From NCBI GenBank assembly GCA_965204285.1, contig OZ241980.1, positions 1,733,811 through 1,797,810 on the forward strand: 64,000 nt of DNA, in the 5' to 3' direction. The notes beneath the pieces are model-generated. The model saw nothing but the letters and a program-made list of their open reading frames with translations, had not been told where the DNA came from and did no database searches. The stretch is from Candidatus Poribacteria bacterium (GTDB lineage: Bacteria > Poribacteria > WGA-4E > WGA-3G). Of this stretch, positions 5,180-58,636 are shown piece after piece; positions within the stretch are counted from its first letter, which is position 1; every line of letters begins with the position of its first letter. Both the position numbers and the translations under genes were made by a program.

Positions 5180-5243
5180 GTAGGAGCGATCTCCGAATCG
5201 CGACGAAACGCTTTGATAGTCGGGGATTGGAGTTCCCTCCCGT
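5180..5243. repeat. REP-like palindromic element pair (GTAGGAGCGATCTCCGAATCGCGAC ... inverted variant)
   Basis: A-type unit at 5180-5204 and an inverted B-type unit at 5219-5241. Confidence 0.8.
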
Positions 5244-5340
5244 CAAATGCCATACGGGGAACGCCTTAATGGCGTTCATACCGTTGATTTGGCGCATTTG
5301 GCGTTGATTCACAGAAGATTCATTGATGCCGAGTGGGTGA

Positions 5341-5694
5341 TGGAGGTGGCGGGAATTGAACCCGCGTCCGAAAGCATATTGATAAAGGCTACTACATGTT
5401 TATCACAGGTTTTGAGTTTTCGCTGTCCAGACTCCCCTATGCGGGATTCATGGAGGCTATCTCAAGTTTAGGTTCACGGTATGTCCCTTGAGAACAATCA
5501 AACCGCTATCCCGTATTGCGGCGCTTTAGCTTCCCTGACGGGAAACAGGTTGGCCAAGCGTAGCTGCGTACTAAGCAGCTAATGCTAATTCTTGATCAGC
5601 AATTATAATTGTTCCGCCTATTTAACGAGGCCTGCGGAGACCTCGACATGCAACCTGTATCGCAATTACCTCCGTCGAAACCAAGGTCACCCCC
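5341..5694 (-). ncRNA. ssrA: tmRNA (ssrA)
   Basis: The reverse complement begins GGGGGUGACCUUGGUUUCGACGG and ends GGACGCGGGUUCAAUUCCCGCCACCUCCA. The tag reading frame ends ...ADQELALAA stop. Confidence 0.85.
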
Positions 5695-5712
5695 AAATTA
5701 TATTTTGTGAAT

Positions 5713-6174
5713 TTATGTATATTCTCGTATTTCTCGGTTAGCGTGTTCACGCTCAATTTTATCGCGCTTATCGTAGAATCGCTTCCCTTGTGCGACTGCT
5801 AATTCTACTTTTACCTTTCCGCCACTAAAGTAAGCACGTGTCGGAACTAAGGTCATTCCCTTTGACTGAACTGCTCGTGTCAATTTTCTTATTTCGTTAC
5901 GATGCAGCAAGAGTTTACGGGGACGTTTCGGTTCATGATTCATCCGATTTCCCTGATCATACAAACCGATAAACGCATCAATGAGAAATATCTCTCCGTC
6001 TGTTATTTGTGCGTAGCTGTCGGTCAGGTTAAACTGTCCGTTTCTAATCGCTTTTACTTCAGTCCCCTGCAAAACGATGCCTGCCTCATACCGATCGTGC
6101 AGATGATAGTCATAACGCGCTTTACGGTTGACAGTAATCGTTGGATTCTGTGGGGATTTCTTTTTATCTTTCAC
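5713..6174 (-). CDS. smpB: SsrA-binding protein SmpB
   Basis: KARYDYHL..EAGIVLQGTEVKAIRNG motifs. The longest ORF extends to 6246, but a GTG at 6174 with an AAGGG RBS gives the canonical ~154 aa length. Confidence 0.75.
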   Translation of the reverse strand: MKDKKKSPQNPTITVNRKARYDYHLHDRYEAGIVLQGTEVKAIRNGQFNLTDSYAQITDGEIFLIDAFIGLYDQGNRMNHEPKRPRKLLLHRNEIRKLTRAVQSKGMTLVPTRAYFSGGKVKVELAVAQGKRFYDKRDKIEREHANREIREYT

Positions 6175-6281
6175 AATAACCCTTATTTTACCATATATTA
6201 TATGAAGTGTGCAAGGAAAATGTGGTTTAATGGCAGAGGCATTCAATTTTCCAATTATTTCTTTTTTTTAAAACCTCTTCT

Positions 6282-6307
6282 TGTAGGAGCGAACTCCAGC
6301 TCGCGAC
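6282..6307. repeat. REP-like element variant (TGTAGGAGCGAACTCCAGCTCGCGAC)
   Basis: Same GTAGGAG..GAC frame with the stem changed to GAGC/GCTC. Confidence 0.7.
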
Positions 6308-6521
6308 CTTTCGACCAAAACGGGTTATAAACCGACAATTGAATGCCTCTGGCTATTAATTGGAATTAAGCGACTAATATGATTAATTTTGATAAATTAA
6401 GATAAAATAACACATTTTTTCACTTTATGCAACCTGTAGACCAAAAACTGTGTCTTTAATATCATAAATACGAAATGTATCAATTTTACTGAACTATTTA
6501 TCAAATATAAGGAGCAGAACA

Positions 6522-55998: not shown

Positions 55999-56004
55999 TC
56001 CAGT

Positions 56005-56691
56005 CTAAAATTGTGGGTATAAGTGTTTTAGTCGGATGCGCGCATCATCCGTTGTGAAGTGCCAGTCCACTTGCTTCGCTTCACGATTACGCCTTGCCTC
56101 CCAGGCTTTTGTCTCTCTCCGTAGTGTTTCTATGTCAGGGATACGCCGACACAAACATTGGCGTGTGAGCACACTCAGTTCTATCTCCGCTATATTCAAC
56201 CAACTTCCATGCTTAGGTGTATAGACTATTTCCAAACGCGAACACAATCTCTCTGCTGCCTTCGCTCCAAATGTTTTGGACAACGACGAAAAGTTATGCG
56301 TATTCAGGTTATCACAGACTAAAATCACACGCTTTGCTAACGGATACACCTCATCCAATAGCACCCGGACTTCCTCCGCCCAATCCGTTGCGGTCCGACG
56401 CTCCCGAACAGACACACGCCGCCACCCCGCAAGTGCCGCTGTGAAAATGAAAAGTTGAGCCGTGCCATTGCGTTTATATTCATTGTCTACACGCTTGACC
56501 TGCCCCGGTTTAGCGGGATGGGGATCACGGGTATCACCTCTCAACGTTACAGATTGTTCATCCATGTTCACAACAGGAACATCCGGATCCAAAGGTTGCT
56601 GATAGAGATTTAGCACCGCCTCCATTGCCTCAACAAACTCGGCAGCTTCTTCAGGAGGGATCACCCATTGCTCCACAAGATGCGGTTTCAA
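56005..56691 (-). CDS. IS630-family transposase, DDE domain part (orfB)
   Basis: DDE-domain pattern (VLVCDNLNTH...W.N..E). Confidence 0.7.
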   Translation of the reverse strand: MKPHLVEQWVIPPEEAAEFVEAMEAVLNLYQQPLDPDVPVVNMDEQSVTLRGDTRDPHPAKPGQVKRVDNEYKRNGTAQLFIFTAALAGWRRVSVRERRTATDWAEEVRVLLDEVYPLAKRVILVCDNLNTHNFSSLSKTFGAKAAERLCSRLEIVYTPKHGSWLNIAEIELSVLTRQCLCRRIPDIETLRRETKAWEARRNREAKQVDWHFTTDDARIRLKHLYPQF

Positions 56692-57131
56692 AGCGTTTTT
56701 TTGAGTGTCTGACGCACCGTTTCTGGTGAAATACTCTCTACAATCTCAAGTCTAACCAGTTCTGACGCAAGAAGCCGTAGTGTCCATTTGCCAGCACCTT
56801 CTGGAGGCTCCCCACAACTCAGGGCTATCAAGCGCGCCTCAGCTGCACCATCAAGCTTGCAAGGCGTGGGAGGATGTTCGCGCTTAGCACGATACAAGGC
56901 ACGAGAAAAACCACCTTCCGTAAAGCGCTTGCGCACATTAGCTACTGTCTGGTGATTACACTCATACGCATCAGCTATTTTTGTATCGCTCCAACCGGGG
57001 CCCTTCACATCCGATTTCAGCAAAATATAAGCATTCCTTATCTTATACGCCTCGTTTTTACCAGTGTGGACACAGTCTTCCAACTCTTGACGCTCCGTAT
57101 CGCTCAGTTGGACAACATATTTTTTATTCAC
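56688..57131 (-). CDS. IS630-family transposase, HTH part (orfA)
   Basis: Helix-turn-helix N-domain. It ends at an A7 run just before orfB in the -1 frame. Confidence 0.7.
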   Translation of the reverse strand: MNKKYVVQLSDTERQELEDCVHTGKNEAYKIRNAYILLKSDVKGPGWSDTKIADAYECNHQTVANVRKRFTEGGFSRALYRAKREHPPTPCKLDGAAEARLIALSCGEPPEGAGKWTLRLLASELVRLEIVESISPETVRQTLKKTL

Positions 57132-57259
57132 AGCAGTGTTCCTCCTAAGTAGTATTATATACTATAAGGGAAACACTTTCGTCTGTCAAGATCGCAAAAA
57201 ATCAAAAAATAATCATATAAGTTTAGACTGGACTATCCACTAGAGAGAAGGACATTTTT

Positions 57260-58477
57260 GTGACATGGGAATGGGATATGGAAGCTTACAAGGCAGGGAA
57301 CGCCGGTTCTATGCCCTCACCGATGCAAGTCAATCTTGTTTCTGATAGTTATGTTCGTAACGCTCACGAAAGTGGGACTCAAGACACACACCGGTGGGCA
57401 AACTTTTGCAATGAAGGGATACCCGGACACGAGAAGGTCTACGCAATACTCGTTAGAACCTATAAGGGTACGGATGCCCCTCGAAATACATTTGGGTTCG
57501 CAATAACAGAAGATCTTGGTGCGAATGATTTAGAAGGCACCCCTCGGCCACCGTCGCAATGGTCTCAAGCAGTTATCATTCTTGATAACATTAATGCACA
57601 ATGGAATAGGCGAGCCGATAGAGAAACCGTCATCAACAACGTGATCGCCCACGAAATCGCGCACTGTGTCAACCTCGCGCACTGTCCCGTAGATCCGTGT
57701 CCGGTAGCAGGTGAGAACGGTAATTTTTGCTACATGGACAGAGGGCGGACCCGCACGTCTTCAAGTACCGTTTTCGGTAACTCGCACAATCCGTATTACG
57801 ACGCGCATTTACCAAAAGGTAATAACCAACCGGTACATGAATCTCAGGAAGCAGGCGACACCGATGATTCTCCAGTTGGTGGCAATGGCAGCACGGGTAA
57901 TAGTAACACGAGTAGTAGTAGCACGAACACGGGTAGTAGTTCTTATGGGTGTGATTACAATGCGGAATATGACTATTGCACAGATACCGGCACATGCACC
58001 ACACGATCAGGTCAGTTCGGGATTGGTATGTGTGGCCATCGGTGGTGTTGTTGCGCACCTGATACAACTACCCAAACGCCAGCGCCATCAACGCCGTCAA
58101 CGTCTTCAACACCCTCAACGTCTGTTACGAGCACGAACACGGGTTATAGTAGTTCTTATGGGTGTGATTACAACGCAGAATATGACTATTGCACAGACAC
58201 AGGCTGGTGCACGACGCGCTCAGGTGAGTTTGGGATTGGTATGTGCGGTCATCGGTGGTGTTGTTGCGCACCAGCTGATACAACGACACAAACGCCACCC
58301 TCAACGTCTGTTACGAGCACGAACACGGGTTATAGTAGTTCTTATGGGTGTGATTACAACGCAGAATATGACTATTGCACAGACACAGGCTGGTGCACGA
58401 CGCGCTCAGGTGAGTTTGGGATCGGTATGTGCGGTCATCGATGGTGCTGCTGCGCGCAGAATAGTCCATATCAATAG
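57260..58477 (+). pseudogene. 3' portion of the IS630-interrupted gene: HExxH zinc-metalloprotease domain + three tandem Cys-rich ~40-aa modules
   Basis: AHEIAHCVNLAHC zincin motif. Three copies of YGCDYNAEYDYCTDTG(W/T)CTTRSGEFGIGMCGHRWCCCA are separated by T/S/P linkers. The segment is in frame with 55240-55990 once the IS is removed. Confidence 0.65.
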
Positions 58478-58571
58478 GGCGTTTCACGTTGTTTATTCAA
58501 ACTGGCAGGTACCTTCAAGGTATCTGCCTATTCTTTTATAGTGGATTCTACAATTAACTGGACATCTGAGC

Positions 58572-58636
58572 TGTAGGAGGGAACTCCGATTCCCGACTAT
58601 TATTGGTTTCGTCGCGATTCGGAGATCGCTCCTACA
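58572..58636. repeat. REP-like inverted pair (B-unit + inverted A-unit)
   Basis: tgtaggagggaactccgattcccgac ... gtcgcgattcggagatcgctcctaca. Confidence 0.8.

What the first reader, a model, noticed from the sequence alone, without database searches (positions are those of the whole stretch)
5180..58636. High-copy intergenic hairpin repeat family (GTAGGAG-stem-loop-GAC) with compensatory stem substitutions
At least 16 intergenic loci carry a ~25-nt unit. The conserved flanks are GTAGGAG and GAC. The internal 5-bp stem covaries between copies: GCGAT-CTCCGA-ATCGC in the A-type unit, GGGAA-CTCCGA-TTCCC in the B-type unit, and GCGACC-TCCT-GGTCGC in a third variant. Pairing is preserved while the sequence changes, which points to selection on a folded single-stranded nucleic acid (RNA or ssDNA) rather than sequence drift. 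Units occur singly, as A+inverted-B pairs that can form ~70-nt long hairpins (for example 30112-30181, 58572-58636, 37974-38035), and as head-to-tail arrays. This is REP/BIME-like behaviour, but no RAYT (IS200/IS605-type TnpA) is present in the window.
Basis: seen in the sequence. Interest (0 to 1): 0.7.

Follow-up and report, generated by a model that had tools for sequence, protein, structure and literature searches.

The report
REP palindrome repeats in a Poribacteria genome
The repeat is a real, high-copy family of GTAG-tagged repetitive extragenic palindromes (REP/BIME/REPIN-type small mobile hairpin DNA) in a sponge-symbiont (Candidatus Poribacteria) genome, which is a known kind of bacterial element in a phylum where the papers I searched do not describe it.

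Summary
Confirmed. The window (43% GC, Candidatus Poribacteria, 88-92% identical to MAG OZ244563.1) holds 25 confident and 2 marginal copies of a 25-nt unit, (C)T-GTAG-GA-[5-6 bp stem]-loop-[stem]-GAC, at about 15 intergenic loci. None are expected by chance.

Over 458 copies from Poribacteria-like DNA, two stem pairs covary through all four Watson-Crick pairs (0/500 shuffles), so a hairpin is under constraint.

The anatomy matches the published GTAG-tagged REP superfamily (GTAG-1/2 layout). The head and tail are shared with RAYT-flanking REPs of Xanthomonas and Pseudomonas.

Units occur in three forms:
- singly;
- as homotypic tandem arrays;
- as A + inverted-B doublets inside a ~135-nt palindromic shell (TATAGT...ACTATA).

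One such 131-nt composite is present in the related genome and absent from the orthologous window site. Orthologous spacers in relatives hold different repeats, so the elements turn over.

No RAYT lies in the window. Poribacteria do encode a syntenic RAYT, but a different GTAG-REP class flanks it. The mobilising enzyme for this class is unresolved, and a transposase-driven MITE mechanism is not excluded.

Verdict: a new member of a known kind, of moderate-to-low interest.

The parts
5180..5204 (+). A-type REP unit. Its left shell end TATAGT is at 5145. It forms a head-head doublet with 5219-5243.
   Evidence: CM 43 bits. Exact pattern match. Shell end seen.
5219..5243 (-). Degenerate inverted B-type unit. 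The right shell is replaced by GAAYGCC-type hairpin repeats.
   Evidence: CM 15.2 bits, E 0.047. Sequence (D9).
6283..6307 (+). Single unit with stem variant GCGAA/CTCGC, in the divergent smpB spacer.
   Evidence: CM 35.4 bits. Context.
7304..7421 (.). Cluster of three tandem A-type units (7304, 7334, 7364; period 30) followed by an inverted B unit at 7397-7421. The GTAG of the first unit supplies the TAG stop of ORF 6522-7307.
8524..8582 (.). Head-head doublet: degenerate A (8524-8548, +) and inverted B (8558-8582, -), with a 9-nt spacer.
11726..11750 (+). Single A-type unit, slightly decayed. Its GTAG supplies the TAG stop of ORF 10722-11729.
17117..17141 (-). Single D-type unit (GCGAGC-TCCG-GCTCGC) in a divergent spacer.
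30021..30045 (+). Single decayed C-type unit.
   Evidence: CM 28.8 bits.
30077..30210 (.). Composite element, truncated on the right. In order: TATAGT shell end, A unit 30113-30137 (+), 19-nt spacer, inverted B unit 30157-30181 (-), then a partial unit at 30200-30210.
31289..31385 (+). Tandem array of three A-type units (31290, 31325, 31360), period 35.
   Evidence: TRF. CM hits.
32236..32260 (+). Single C-type unit, 67 nt downstream of the RraA-like gene.
   Evidence: The orthologous spacers hold different repeats.
34037..34205 (+). 169-nt TATAGT...ACTATA shell. It contains a second GTAG hairpin (34086, GTAGTC-GCGCAA-TTCA-TTGCGC) and the C-type unit at 34116-34140.
36873..37044 (+). Paralogous ~172-nt shell, with a GTAGTC hairpin at 36924 and a C-type unit at 36954-36978.
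   Evidence: (D12).
37936..38074 (.). Composite doublet: a B-like unit at 37974-37998 (+), a 15-nt spacer and an inverted A-like unit at 38014-38038 (-), inside the shell.
48494..48518 (-). Decayed A-type unit, the tail-tail partner of the split B unit.
   Evidence: CM 25.2 bits.
48544..48638 (+). B-type unit split in its loop. The left half is 48544-48558 and the right half 48629-48638. A 70-nt insertion of two GAAYGCC-hairpin repeats lies between them.
50140..50164 (+). Single hybrid unit (GCGAT...GGTCGC, with a T.G pair).
58537..58671 (.). Complete 135-nt composite: TATAGT shell, B unit 58573-58597 (+), 13-nt spacer, inverted A unit 58611-58635 (-), ACTATA shell end.
   Evidence: It folds to -25.1 kcal/mol as DNA, z = -7.3.
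1959..1963 (.). Empty site (ATCTA). The orthologous position in the related genome, locus L008 (OZ244563.1), carries a 131-nt composite element.

Best explanation
These are repetitive extragenic palindromes of the GTAG-tagged superfamily, with the GTAG-1/2 layout.

Anatomy. Each unit has:
- an unpaired GTAG tag;
- two extra bases, GA;
- a 5-6 bp stem with a 4-6 nt loop;
- a 3-nt tail, GAC.

Arrangements. Units occur as:
- singlets;
- homotypic tandem arrays;
- inverted A/B doublets (BIME/REPIN-like). The doublets sit inside a ~135-nt palindromic shell, TATAGT...ACTATA.

Proposed mechanism. They are non-autonomous mobile DNA.
- When the DNA is single-stranded, for example at the replication fork, the unit folds into its hairpin.
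- A REP-associated tyrosine transposase (RAYT, an HUH/Y1 enzyme) acting in trans recognises the GTAG tag and the folded stem.
- It cuts at the adjacent CT, which allows excision and reinsertion.
- Because the enzyme needs the fold and the tag rather than the stem sequence, stem pairs can flip. Each flipped master copy then seeds a subfamily. This produces the covariation.

Shown here:
- the family, its anatomy and its hairpin constraint;
- its extragenic bias;
- its doublet and array organisation;
- its distribution across Poribacteria and its presence in other phyla;
- presence/absence and turnover between related genomes;
- the existence of RAYT genes in Poribacteria.

Inferred:
- that a RAYT moves this particular class;
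- that ssDNA rather than RNA is the selected form.

Any effects on transcripts would be side effects and were not tested.
For: Family and excess:
- Pattern and word counts far exceed chance.
- I found 518 copies in the window, 119 genome stretches and 120 metagenome stretches. Nearly all the named genomes are Candidatus Poribacteria MAGs.

Hairpin constraint:
- Covariation at 8:21 and 11:18 exceeds all shuffles: 0/10000 by permutation and 0/500 by the count of structure pairs.

Match to published REP definitions:
- GTAG tag, GW extra bases, 3-bp tail, 5-13 bp stems, complementary-change subfamilies, HH/TT/HT dimers and clusters (PMC3733652).
- RAYT-flanking REPs of Xanthomonas axonopodis (GTAGGAGCGCACCtGGGCGCGAC), P. 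putida W619 and P. entomophila share the GTAGGAGCG head and the CGCGA(C/A/T) tail (PMC2817692).

Cleavage-site context:
- The dinucleotide before GTAG is YT, mostly CT. RAYTs cleave at a CT 5' or 3' of the REP. Group-3 REPs are short perfect palindromes (PMC8266576).

Location and organisation:
- 84% of copies are intergenic although only about 17% of the DNA is non-coding.
- Inverted doublets are A+B in 47 of 59 head-head cases, while tandem arrays are homotypic.

Mobility:
- A 131-nt composite is present in L008 and absent at window 1959-1963, within 88-92% identical flanks.
- Orthologous spacers in relatives whose RraA-like protein is 88-90% identical carry different REP content.

RAYT in the phylum:
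- L092 5565-6137 matches E. coli RayT at E = 1.6e-35 and hits Pfam Y1_Tnp.
- It sits in conserved synteny in several genomes and is flanked by GTAG REPs.
- The same genomes also hold class-1 units.
Against: - No RAYT flanked by this REP class was found in the window or in about 1.9 Mb of REP-containing DNA.
- Every Poribacteria RAYT I examined is flanked by a different class, GTAGGG-YGSGCA-CTG...-CC.
- Those RAYT loci come from genomes of about 53% GC, whereas the window is 43% GC.
- The one clean presence/absence case has a 5-nt (or TA) direct repeat at its junctions. HUH transposition would not be expected to produce this; that expectation rests on my own knowledge of IS200/IS605.
- A single unit's hairpin is thermodynamically weak, -3.3 to -3.9 kcal/mol as DNA.
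- Singletons in co-directional spacers show an orientation bias, 47:22, p = 0.0035. This could reflect either an RNA role or replication-strand targeting.
Confidence: 0.7

Rival explanations
1. The mobile unit is a classical MITE. In this reading the ~135-nt TATAGT...ACTATA palindromic shell provides terminal inverted repeats for a DDE transposase, for example an IS630-like enzyme that duplicates TA. The GTAG hairpins are passengers or internal structure and no RAYT is involved.
For: - The shell ends are conserved across 48 doublet copies, and flanks outside them are unrelated.
- Pairs of shell ends cluster at 130-170 nt.
- C-type units at 34116 and 36954 sit in the same shell.
- In the L008 versus window comparison the whole composite is the indel. 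It has ATCTA, or TA, at both junctions.
- No cognate RAYT was found.
Against: - About a third of the units (164 of 458) are isolated singletons. 154 of those have no shell-like motif in the 30 nt upstream and still keep the YT-GTAG context.
- Units also form homotypic tandem arrays.
- The same 25-nt frame occurs in high-GC MAGs of other phyla without the shell.
- No longer element bounded by the same termini and carrying a transposase was seen in the sampled DNA.
- The target duplication rests on one site, whose empty form itself resembles the element end.
- REP dimers nested in long TATAGGA...TCCTATA palindromes are already described for Anabaena (PMC3733652).
Confidence: 0.15
2. The hairpins are primarily functional RNA or transcript elements, such as 3'-end stabilisers, RNase processing sites or weak terminators. 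Selection keeps them at each site, and their copy number reflects function rather than mobility.
For: - Singletons in co-directional spacers favour the sense orientation, 47:22.
- The median distance to the upstream stop codon is 94 nt.
- The doublet folds very stably as RNA, -45 kcal/mol, z = -6.4.
- G-T pairs occur, for example 17 T.G at 11:18.
- REPs in other bacteria have reported roles in mRNA stability and termination (PMC3733652 abstract).
Against: - Occupancy is not conserved at orthologous spacers of close relatives.
- Units are spread over divergent, convergent and co-directional spacers roughly in proportion to spacer length.
- Terminator-like sites are not enriched: 7 found against 7.6 expected, and only one falls on a class-1 unit (30119-30134); another is the adjacent GTAGTC hairpin at 36930.
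- G.T and A.C mismatches are balanced, 37 against 33.
- Rfam gives no match.
Confidence: 0.08
3. The units are double-stranded binding sites for a dimeric DNA-binding protein, such as a nucleoid-associated or regulatory protein. The palindromy would then reflect dyad symmetry of the protein rather than a folded strand.
For: The units are palindromic, extragenic and partly in promoter-containing divergent spacers. By general knowledge, REP/BIMEs in E. coli bind IHF and gyrase.
Against: - A dyad-symmetric protein reads specific bases. Here both variable pairs take all four Watson-Crick combinations while staying complementary.
- The invariant parts, the GTAG-GA head and the CTCC loop, are asymmetric.
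- Site occupancy turns over between relatives.
Confidence: 0.03

Closest known systems
GTAG-1 / GTAG-2 families of GTAG-tagged REPs (Di Nocera et al. 2013, PMC3733652), including the RAYT-flanking REPs of Pseudomonas and Xanthomonas (Nunvar et al. 2010, PMC2817692)
   Same: - Unpaired GTAG tag, two extra bases (GW, here GA), short perfect stem, short loop and 3-nt tail.
- Head GTAGGAGCG and tail CGCGAC nearly identical to Xanthomonas axonopodis GTAGGAGCGCACCtGGGCGCGAC.
- The B type resembles P. fluorescens GTGGGAGGGGGCTTGCCCCCGAT.
- Subfamilies differ by complementary stem changes.
- Copies form HH, TT and HT dimers and clusters and are extragenic.
   Different: - The host is the candidate phylum Poribacteria, at 41-53% GC.
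- The stem is at the short end (5-6 bp) and relatively AT-rich.
- The loop motif CTCC is conserved.
- No RAYT flanked by this class has been found yet.
- Many copies are embedded in a conserved AT-rich palindromic shell.
E. coli BIMEs (alternating Y and Z REP types) and the RayT/TnpA-REP system (PMC3479197, PMC8266576)
   Same: - Inverted doublets join two different REP types (here A and B), so the long hairpin carries fixed mismatches.
- GTAG is preceded by a CT dinucleotide, which is the RAYT cleavage site in E. coli.
- The RAYT is single-copy, syntenic and behaves like a housekeeping gene.
   Different: - E. coli REPs are longer imperfect palindromes with an obligatory bulge (group 2). These units are short perfect palindromes (group-3-like).
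- The Poribacteria RAYT I found is flanked by another REP class.
REPINs (REP doublets forming hairpins; Bertels & Rainey 2011, PMC3116915)
   Same: - Inverted REP doublets with a conserved spacer fold into one long hairpin.
- The doublet, not the singlet, behaves as the unit of presence/absence, although this rests on one case.
- Tandem REP arrays also occur.
   Different: - The doublets are heterotypic, with four symmetric 1x1 mismatches.
- Each carries about 36 nt of conserved extra arm per side.
- No RAYT is known to lie next to this class.
Anabaena variabilis GTAG-15 dimers nested in long palindromes TATAGGA...TCCTATA (PMC3733652, section 7)
   Same: REP dimers sit inside a longer conserved palindrome whose ends begin with TATAG.
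   Different: The shell sequence and the REP class differ. No shell without REPs was seen here.
Small dispersed repeats (SDR) of Nostoc (Elhai et al. 2008; cited from memory, not read here)
   Same: Very small hairpin repeats with compensatory changes insert inside other repeats. That is how the second family (CGGG-GAAYGCC-N-GGCRTTC-ATACCGTTGATTT) behaves when it splits class-1 units.
   Different: The sequences and the phylum differ. The comparison rests on recollection only.

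Membership tests
GTAG-tagged REP superfamily (PMC3733652) | Unpaired GTAG (or near variant) motif at one end of the palindrome, conserved in most copies | tested here: met
   Positions 1-4 are G 98%, T 97%, A 94% and G 93% over 275 copies, and lie outside the stem.
GTAG-tagged REP superfamily (PMC3733652) | Short stem-loop (stem 5-13 bp, loop 2-20 nt) with subfamilies that differ by complementary stem changes | tested here: met
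   The stem is 5 bp (6 in C and D types) and the loop 4-6 nt. Pairs 8:21 and 11:18 change on both sides in 129 cells against 49 in shuffles.
GTAG-tagged REP superfamily (PMC3733652) | High copy number, predominantly extragenic | tested here: met
   The window holds 25-27 copies in 64 kb. 232 of 275 copies are intergenic against about 17% non-coding DNA. Loci carry 0.9-1.9 extra copies per 10 kb. Whole-genome counts could not be made.
GTAG-tagged REP superfamily (PMC3733652) | Organisation as singlets, HH/TT/HT dimers and clusters | tested here: met
   I counted 46 HH, 22 TT and 47 HT neighbour pairs and 168 singletons among 458 copies.
GTAG-1/GTAG-2 subfamilies (PMC3733652, Table 1) | Two extra unpaired bases (GW) between GTAG and the stem, and a conserved 3-bp tail | tested here: met
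   GA at positions 5-6 (99% each) and GAC at 23-25 (99%, 99%, 93%).
REPtron (REP + RAYT; PMC2817692, PMC8266576) | A RAYT (Y1/HUH) gene in the genome, immediately flanked by REPs of the same class | tested here: inconclusive
   There is no RAYT in the window. The Poribacteria RAYTs at L092, L122-L127, L130-L131 and L132-L138 are all flanked by class 2, GTAGGG-YGSGCA..., and not by this class. None was found in 0.8 Mb of metagenome stretches. Whole genomes could not be scanned.
REPIN (PMC3116915) | Inverted REP doublet with spacer that folds into a hairpin and acts as the replicative unit | tested here: inconclusive
   The fold is confirmed: -25.1 kcal/mol as DNA, z = -7.3. Spacer and arms are conserved across 48 copies. 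Only one empty/filled pair shows the whole doublet as the indel. I could not test fairly whether doublets are better conserved than singlets, because of how the loci were sampled.
MITE (DDE-transposase dependent) | Terminal inverted repeats, a target-site duplication and a related autonomous IS with the same termini | tested here: inconclusive
   TIR-like shell ends are present. A possible TA or ATCTA duplication is seen at one site only. No autonomous element with these termini appears in about 1.9 Mb.
Intrinsic terminator | GC-rich hairpin directly followed by a T run | tested here: not met
   Over 29800-38200 there are 7 terminator-like sites against 7.6 expected. Only one falls on a class-1 unit; another is the adjacent GTAGTC hairpin. 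The 3' flank is only about 45% T.
CRISPR array | Regularly spaced identical repeats separated by unique spacers | tested here: not met
   The two arrays are perfect tandem duplications of unit plus linker, with periods 30 and 35 and 96-98% matches. Other copies are dispersed.
Known RNA families (Rfam 15) | Match to a curated covariance model at gathering score | tested here: not met
   Only tmRNA and two tRNAs are found in the window.

The most novel reading that the evidence does not exclude
This REP class may spread in Poribacteria without a RAYT of its own. It could be moved in trans by the syntenic RAYT that is flanked by another REP class, or by a non-HUH enzyme acting on the TATAGT...ACTATA shell. 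On this reading the obligately heterotypic A/B doublet, with four fixed mismatches in the long hairpin, is a functional requirement of a REP-in-shell hybrid element. That element would in turn be the preferred target of a second tiny hairpin repeat that inserts into REP loops.
Probability: 0.15. Interest if true: 0.55.

Novelty: new member of a known kind. Interest (0 to 1): 0.3.

Why it matters
- REPs, BIMEs and REPINs are well described in Proteobacteria and Cyanobacteria. A full-text search found no paper describing them in Poribacteria.
- The density here suggests roughly 500-2000 copies per genome. At that level they shape intergenic DNA, drive indels between close relatives and probably break short-read MAG assemblies of these uncultivated sponge symbionts.
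- The near-identity of the head and tail to Xanthomonas and Pseudomonas REPs, and the presence of the same frame in MAGs of other phyla, bears on a wider question: do REP/RAYT pairs move between phyla, or are they ancient?
- The family could also serve as a strain-level marker.
- None of this changes what is known about how REPs work.

Tried and rejected
1. The exact pattern with 16 N found nothing. It was one N too long and I corrected it.

2. Looking up the window's own genome by exact protein failed.

3. The hunt for the cognate RAYT took several routes, and none found a RAYT flanked by this class.
   - I ran phmmer and HMMs built from E. coli RayT, the L092 RAYT, 120 homologues, and Pseudomonas, Stenotrophomonas, Opitutus and Rhodopirellula RAYTs rebuilt from a paper supplement.
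   - These were searched against all ORFs of the window, 119 genome loci and 120 metagenome loci.
   - Nine contig look-ups of RAYT homologues all returned class-2-flanked genes or non-Poribacteria contigs of about 38% GC.
   - A plasmid search for a group-3 RAYT was not useful.

4. L064 444-962(-) is an IS200-like Y1 transposase, but it is flanked by unrelated hairpins.

5. The alternative helix GGAG(4-7):CTCC(12-15) is conserved but shows essentially no covariation, so it can be neither accepted nor rejected.

6. The G.T versus A.C strand test is balanced and uninformative.

7. The L124-L127 strain comparison gave a 162-bp indel containing a doublet, with boundaries that are not clean.

8. 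Two further orthologous comparisons show turnover but no clean empty site: window 5106-5336 against L166, and 37640-38140 against L090.

9. CRISPR, intrinsic-terminator, promoter and Rfam explanations were rejected.

Full report
**Observation**

The repeat is real.
- GTAGGAG occurs 25 times in the window against 2.6 expected.
- The frame GTAGGAGNGANCTCCNNNTCNCGAC has 22 matches at 3 mismatches or fewer against none expected.
- I built a covariance model from 150 distinct copies and ran it without filters. It finds 25 copies with E<1e-3 and two marginal ones, in about 15 intergenic clusters.
- There is a D stem at 17117(-).
- The dinucleotide before GTAG is YT, mostly CT.
- Rfam finds only tmRNA and two tRNAs in the window.

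**Source organism and distribution**

Nearly all came from Candidatus Poribacteria MAGs.
- Locus L008 (OZ244563.1) is 88-92% identical to window 35-3887. The window is therefore a Poribacteria genome of the roughly 43% GC group.
- A metagenome scan gave 120 more stretches.
- In total I collected 518 copies. Of these, 458 come from DNA below 57% GC.
- The same frame, including the CTCC loop, also occurs in high-GC MAGs labelled Pseudomonadales, Thiobacillaceae, Gammaproteobacteria, Planctomycetales and Verrucomicrobiia.

**Structure**

- Positions 7-11 pair with positions 18-22.
- Pair 8:21 is CG, GC, UA or AU. Pair 11:18 is UA, AU, CG, GC or UG.
- Permutation gives 0 of 10000.
- On 150 distinct sequences the helix is 90% paired. 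The covariation score is 0.391 against 0.118 in shuffles (0/500), and it collapses when the 3' partner is slid.
- The search pattern fixed 19 positions, but the covarying ones were left free.
- Copies are not independent events. I count about eight perfectly paired stem subfamilies.
- The competing GGAG:CTCC helix is conserved but shows essentially no covariation.
- G.T and A.C mismatches are balanced, so the fold cannot be assigned to RNA or to one strand.
- A lone unit folds weakly, at about -3.5 kcal/mol as DNA.

**Organisation**

- 84% of copies are intergenic.
- Inverted neighbours are overwhelmingly A plus inverted B: 47 of 59 head-head doublets. Tandem arrays are homotypic.
- The doublet folds into one long hairpin with four symmetric 1x1 mismatches, exactly at the covarying positions. 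The energy is -25.1 kcal/mol as DNA (z = -7.3) and -45 kcal/mol as RNA.
- The doublet is the core of a roughly 135-nt imperfect palindrome with conserved arms and ends TATAGT...ACTATA.
- In the window this composite lies at 58537-58671 and 37936-38074, with truncated copies at 5145 and 30077.
- The same shell encloses C-type units at 34037-34205 and 36873-37044.

**Mobility**

- L008 carries a 131-nt composite where the window has only ATCTA (1959-1963), inside well-aligned flanks.
- I fetched orthologous regions of window positions around 30-37 kb from relatives whose RraA-like protein is 88-90% identical.
- Their spacers are unalignable and hold different repeats. One has a B/B doublet where the window has a C singlet. 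One has an 8-nt spacer where the window has a 169-nt composite. A further GTAGG-TGCGAT...ATCGCA-CC class also appears.
- Occupancy therefore turns over quickly. That argues against site-specific conserved function.

**Comparison with known elements**

- Di Nocera et al. define GTAG-tagged REPs. Their GTAG-1/2 families have GW extra bases and a 3-bp tail, stems of 5-13 bp, subfamilies with complementary stem changes, G-T pairs, HH/TT/HT dimers and clusters. All of these features are met here.
- Nunvar et al. list RAYT-flanking REPs with the same head and tail, for example Xanthomonas GTAGGAGCGCACCtGGGCGCGAC.
- Corneloup et al. report that group-3 REPs are short perfect palindromes, that GTAG is essential, and that cleavage is at a CT next to the REP.
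- Bertels and Rainey define REPINs as inverted REP doublets that form hairpins.
- Di Nocera et al. also describe Anabaena REP dimers nested in TATAGGA...TCCTATA palindromes.
- Compensatory subfamilies and heterotypic doublets are therefore known REP behaviour.

**RAYT**

- None is in the window.
- L092 encodes a RAYT, with E = 1.6e-35 to E. coli RayT and a Pfam Y1_Tnp hit.
- Its homologues sit in conserved synteny (HD protein, RAYT, a 166-aa protein, methyltransferase, ferrochelatase) in several Poribacteria of about 53% GC. One genome has three tandem copies.
- All of them are flanked by a second REP class, GTAGGG-YGSGCA-CTG...-CC, whose stem also covaries between genomes.
- That class is absent from the window and sparse elsewhere.
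- No RAYT flanked by class-1 units turned up in about 1.9 Mb.

**Explanation and rivals**

- The best reading is a REP/BIME/REPIN-type non-autonomous element that is recognised as a folded single strand by a RAYT acting in trans. The classification is shown. The enzyme is inferred.
- A DDE-driven MITE acting on the TATAGT shell is not excluded. The one empty/filled pair has a TA or ATCTA direct repeat at its junctions.
- Against the MITE reading, 154 singletons show no shell motif in the 30 nt upstream, there are tandem arrays, and the frame occurs without the shell in other phyla.
- An RNA-element reading gains a little from the 47:22 sense bias of singletons. It loses on turnover between relatives and on the lack of terminator features.

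**Verdict**

It belongs to a known kind of element, in a phylum where the held literature does not describe it.
- The open points are the mobilising enzyme, the meaning of the fixed A/B pairing, and a second hairpin repeat that inserts inside these units.

Noticed in passing
window 48559-48628, 5258-5290 and 58723 region; also loci L013, L062, L103, L141, L144: There is a second small hairpin repeat family, CGGG-GAAYGCC-N4-5-GGCRTTC-ATACCGTTGATTT. Its own stem covaries (T:A in 98 copies, C:G in 28). It often sits inside class-1 units and splits them in the loop or just after GTAGG. At window 48544-48638 a B unit is interrupted by two copies.
   Followed up: partly
L092 5448-6751; L122-L127, L130-L138: A second GTAG REP class, GTAGGG-YGSGCA-CTG-...-CC, flanks a syntenic RAYT gene in Poribacteria of about 53% GC. 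Its stem differs between genomes (TGGGCA, CGCGCA, TGCGCA). Nearly the same REP flanks a 61-62% identical RAYT on 38% GC contigs, which are probably cyanobacterial (L128).
   Followed up: partly
L263 8325, 8395, 9792; L259 14357: A third related class, GTAGG-TGCGAT-WTCCTW-ATCGCA-CC, occupies spacers in close relatives of the window genome. It looks intermediate between classes 1 and 2.
   Followed up: no
window 34086-34111 and 36924-36949: A different GTAG-tagged hairpin (GTAGTC-GCGCAA-TTCA-TTGCGC, and GCACAA/TTGTGC in the paralogue) lies 30 nt upstream of the C-type unit, inside the same shell. The two copies differ by a compensatory change.
   Followed up: partly
loci L076, L091, L116, L154, L186, L195, L202 (not in the window): C-type units fuse into a 42-nt perfect palindrome, GTAGGAGCGACCTCCCGGTCGCGACCGGGAGGTCGCTCCTAC. 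This lies inside elements of about 170 nt with ends ATACCATTTCTAATA...TATTAGAATTGGTAT.
   Followed up: no
window 7304-7307 and 11726-11729: The TAG of the REP's GTAG tag serves as the stop codon of ORFs 6522-7307 (an FGE-sulfatase domain protein) and 10722-11729. These REPs therefore abut or define the 3' ends of coding regions.
   Followed up: no
L064 444-962 (-): An IS200-like Y1 transposase (Pfam PF01797, E = 1.3e-27) in a Poribacteria chromosome. It is flanked by yet other hairpin repeats (GCACTCCAGCGGAGTGC and CACGCCAGAGGCGTG, with ATGTCTATAGAA).
   Followed up: partly
L123 1557-3582: Three tandem copies of the 193-aa RAYT gene, each preceded by class-2 REPs, in one Poribacteria genome.
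   Followed up: no
window 7488-8519, 8623-10653, 10722-11729: Three adjacent paralogous genes with LolA-like/DUF2092-like regions. The middle one also carries Peptidase_C39 and DUF1573 domains. REP units lie in the spacers after the first and third genes.
   Followed up: no
window 3885-4673 (-), repeats at 4350-4580: A YqiJ-like membrane protein gene contains an in-frame 12/18/48-nt periodic repeat, GAT/GAC/GTT-rich on the coding strand.
   Followed up: no
window 57897-58455: Repeats of about 186 nt (97% identical copies) lie inside ORF 57260-58477, immediately upstream of the complete composite element.
   Followed up: no
window 30066-30090 and 32262-32290; L080, L095, L112, L211, L234: A recurrent motif, AAAACYKAAAACT(A/G)(T/A)A(G/T)TGG, as in 'aaaaaccgaaaactgaatgg' and 'cctaaaactatagtgga', lies next to REP units in several genomes.
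   Followed up: no
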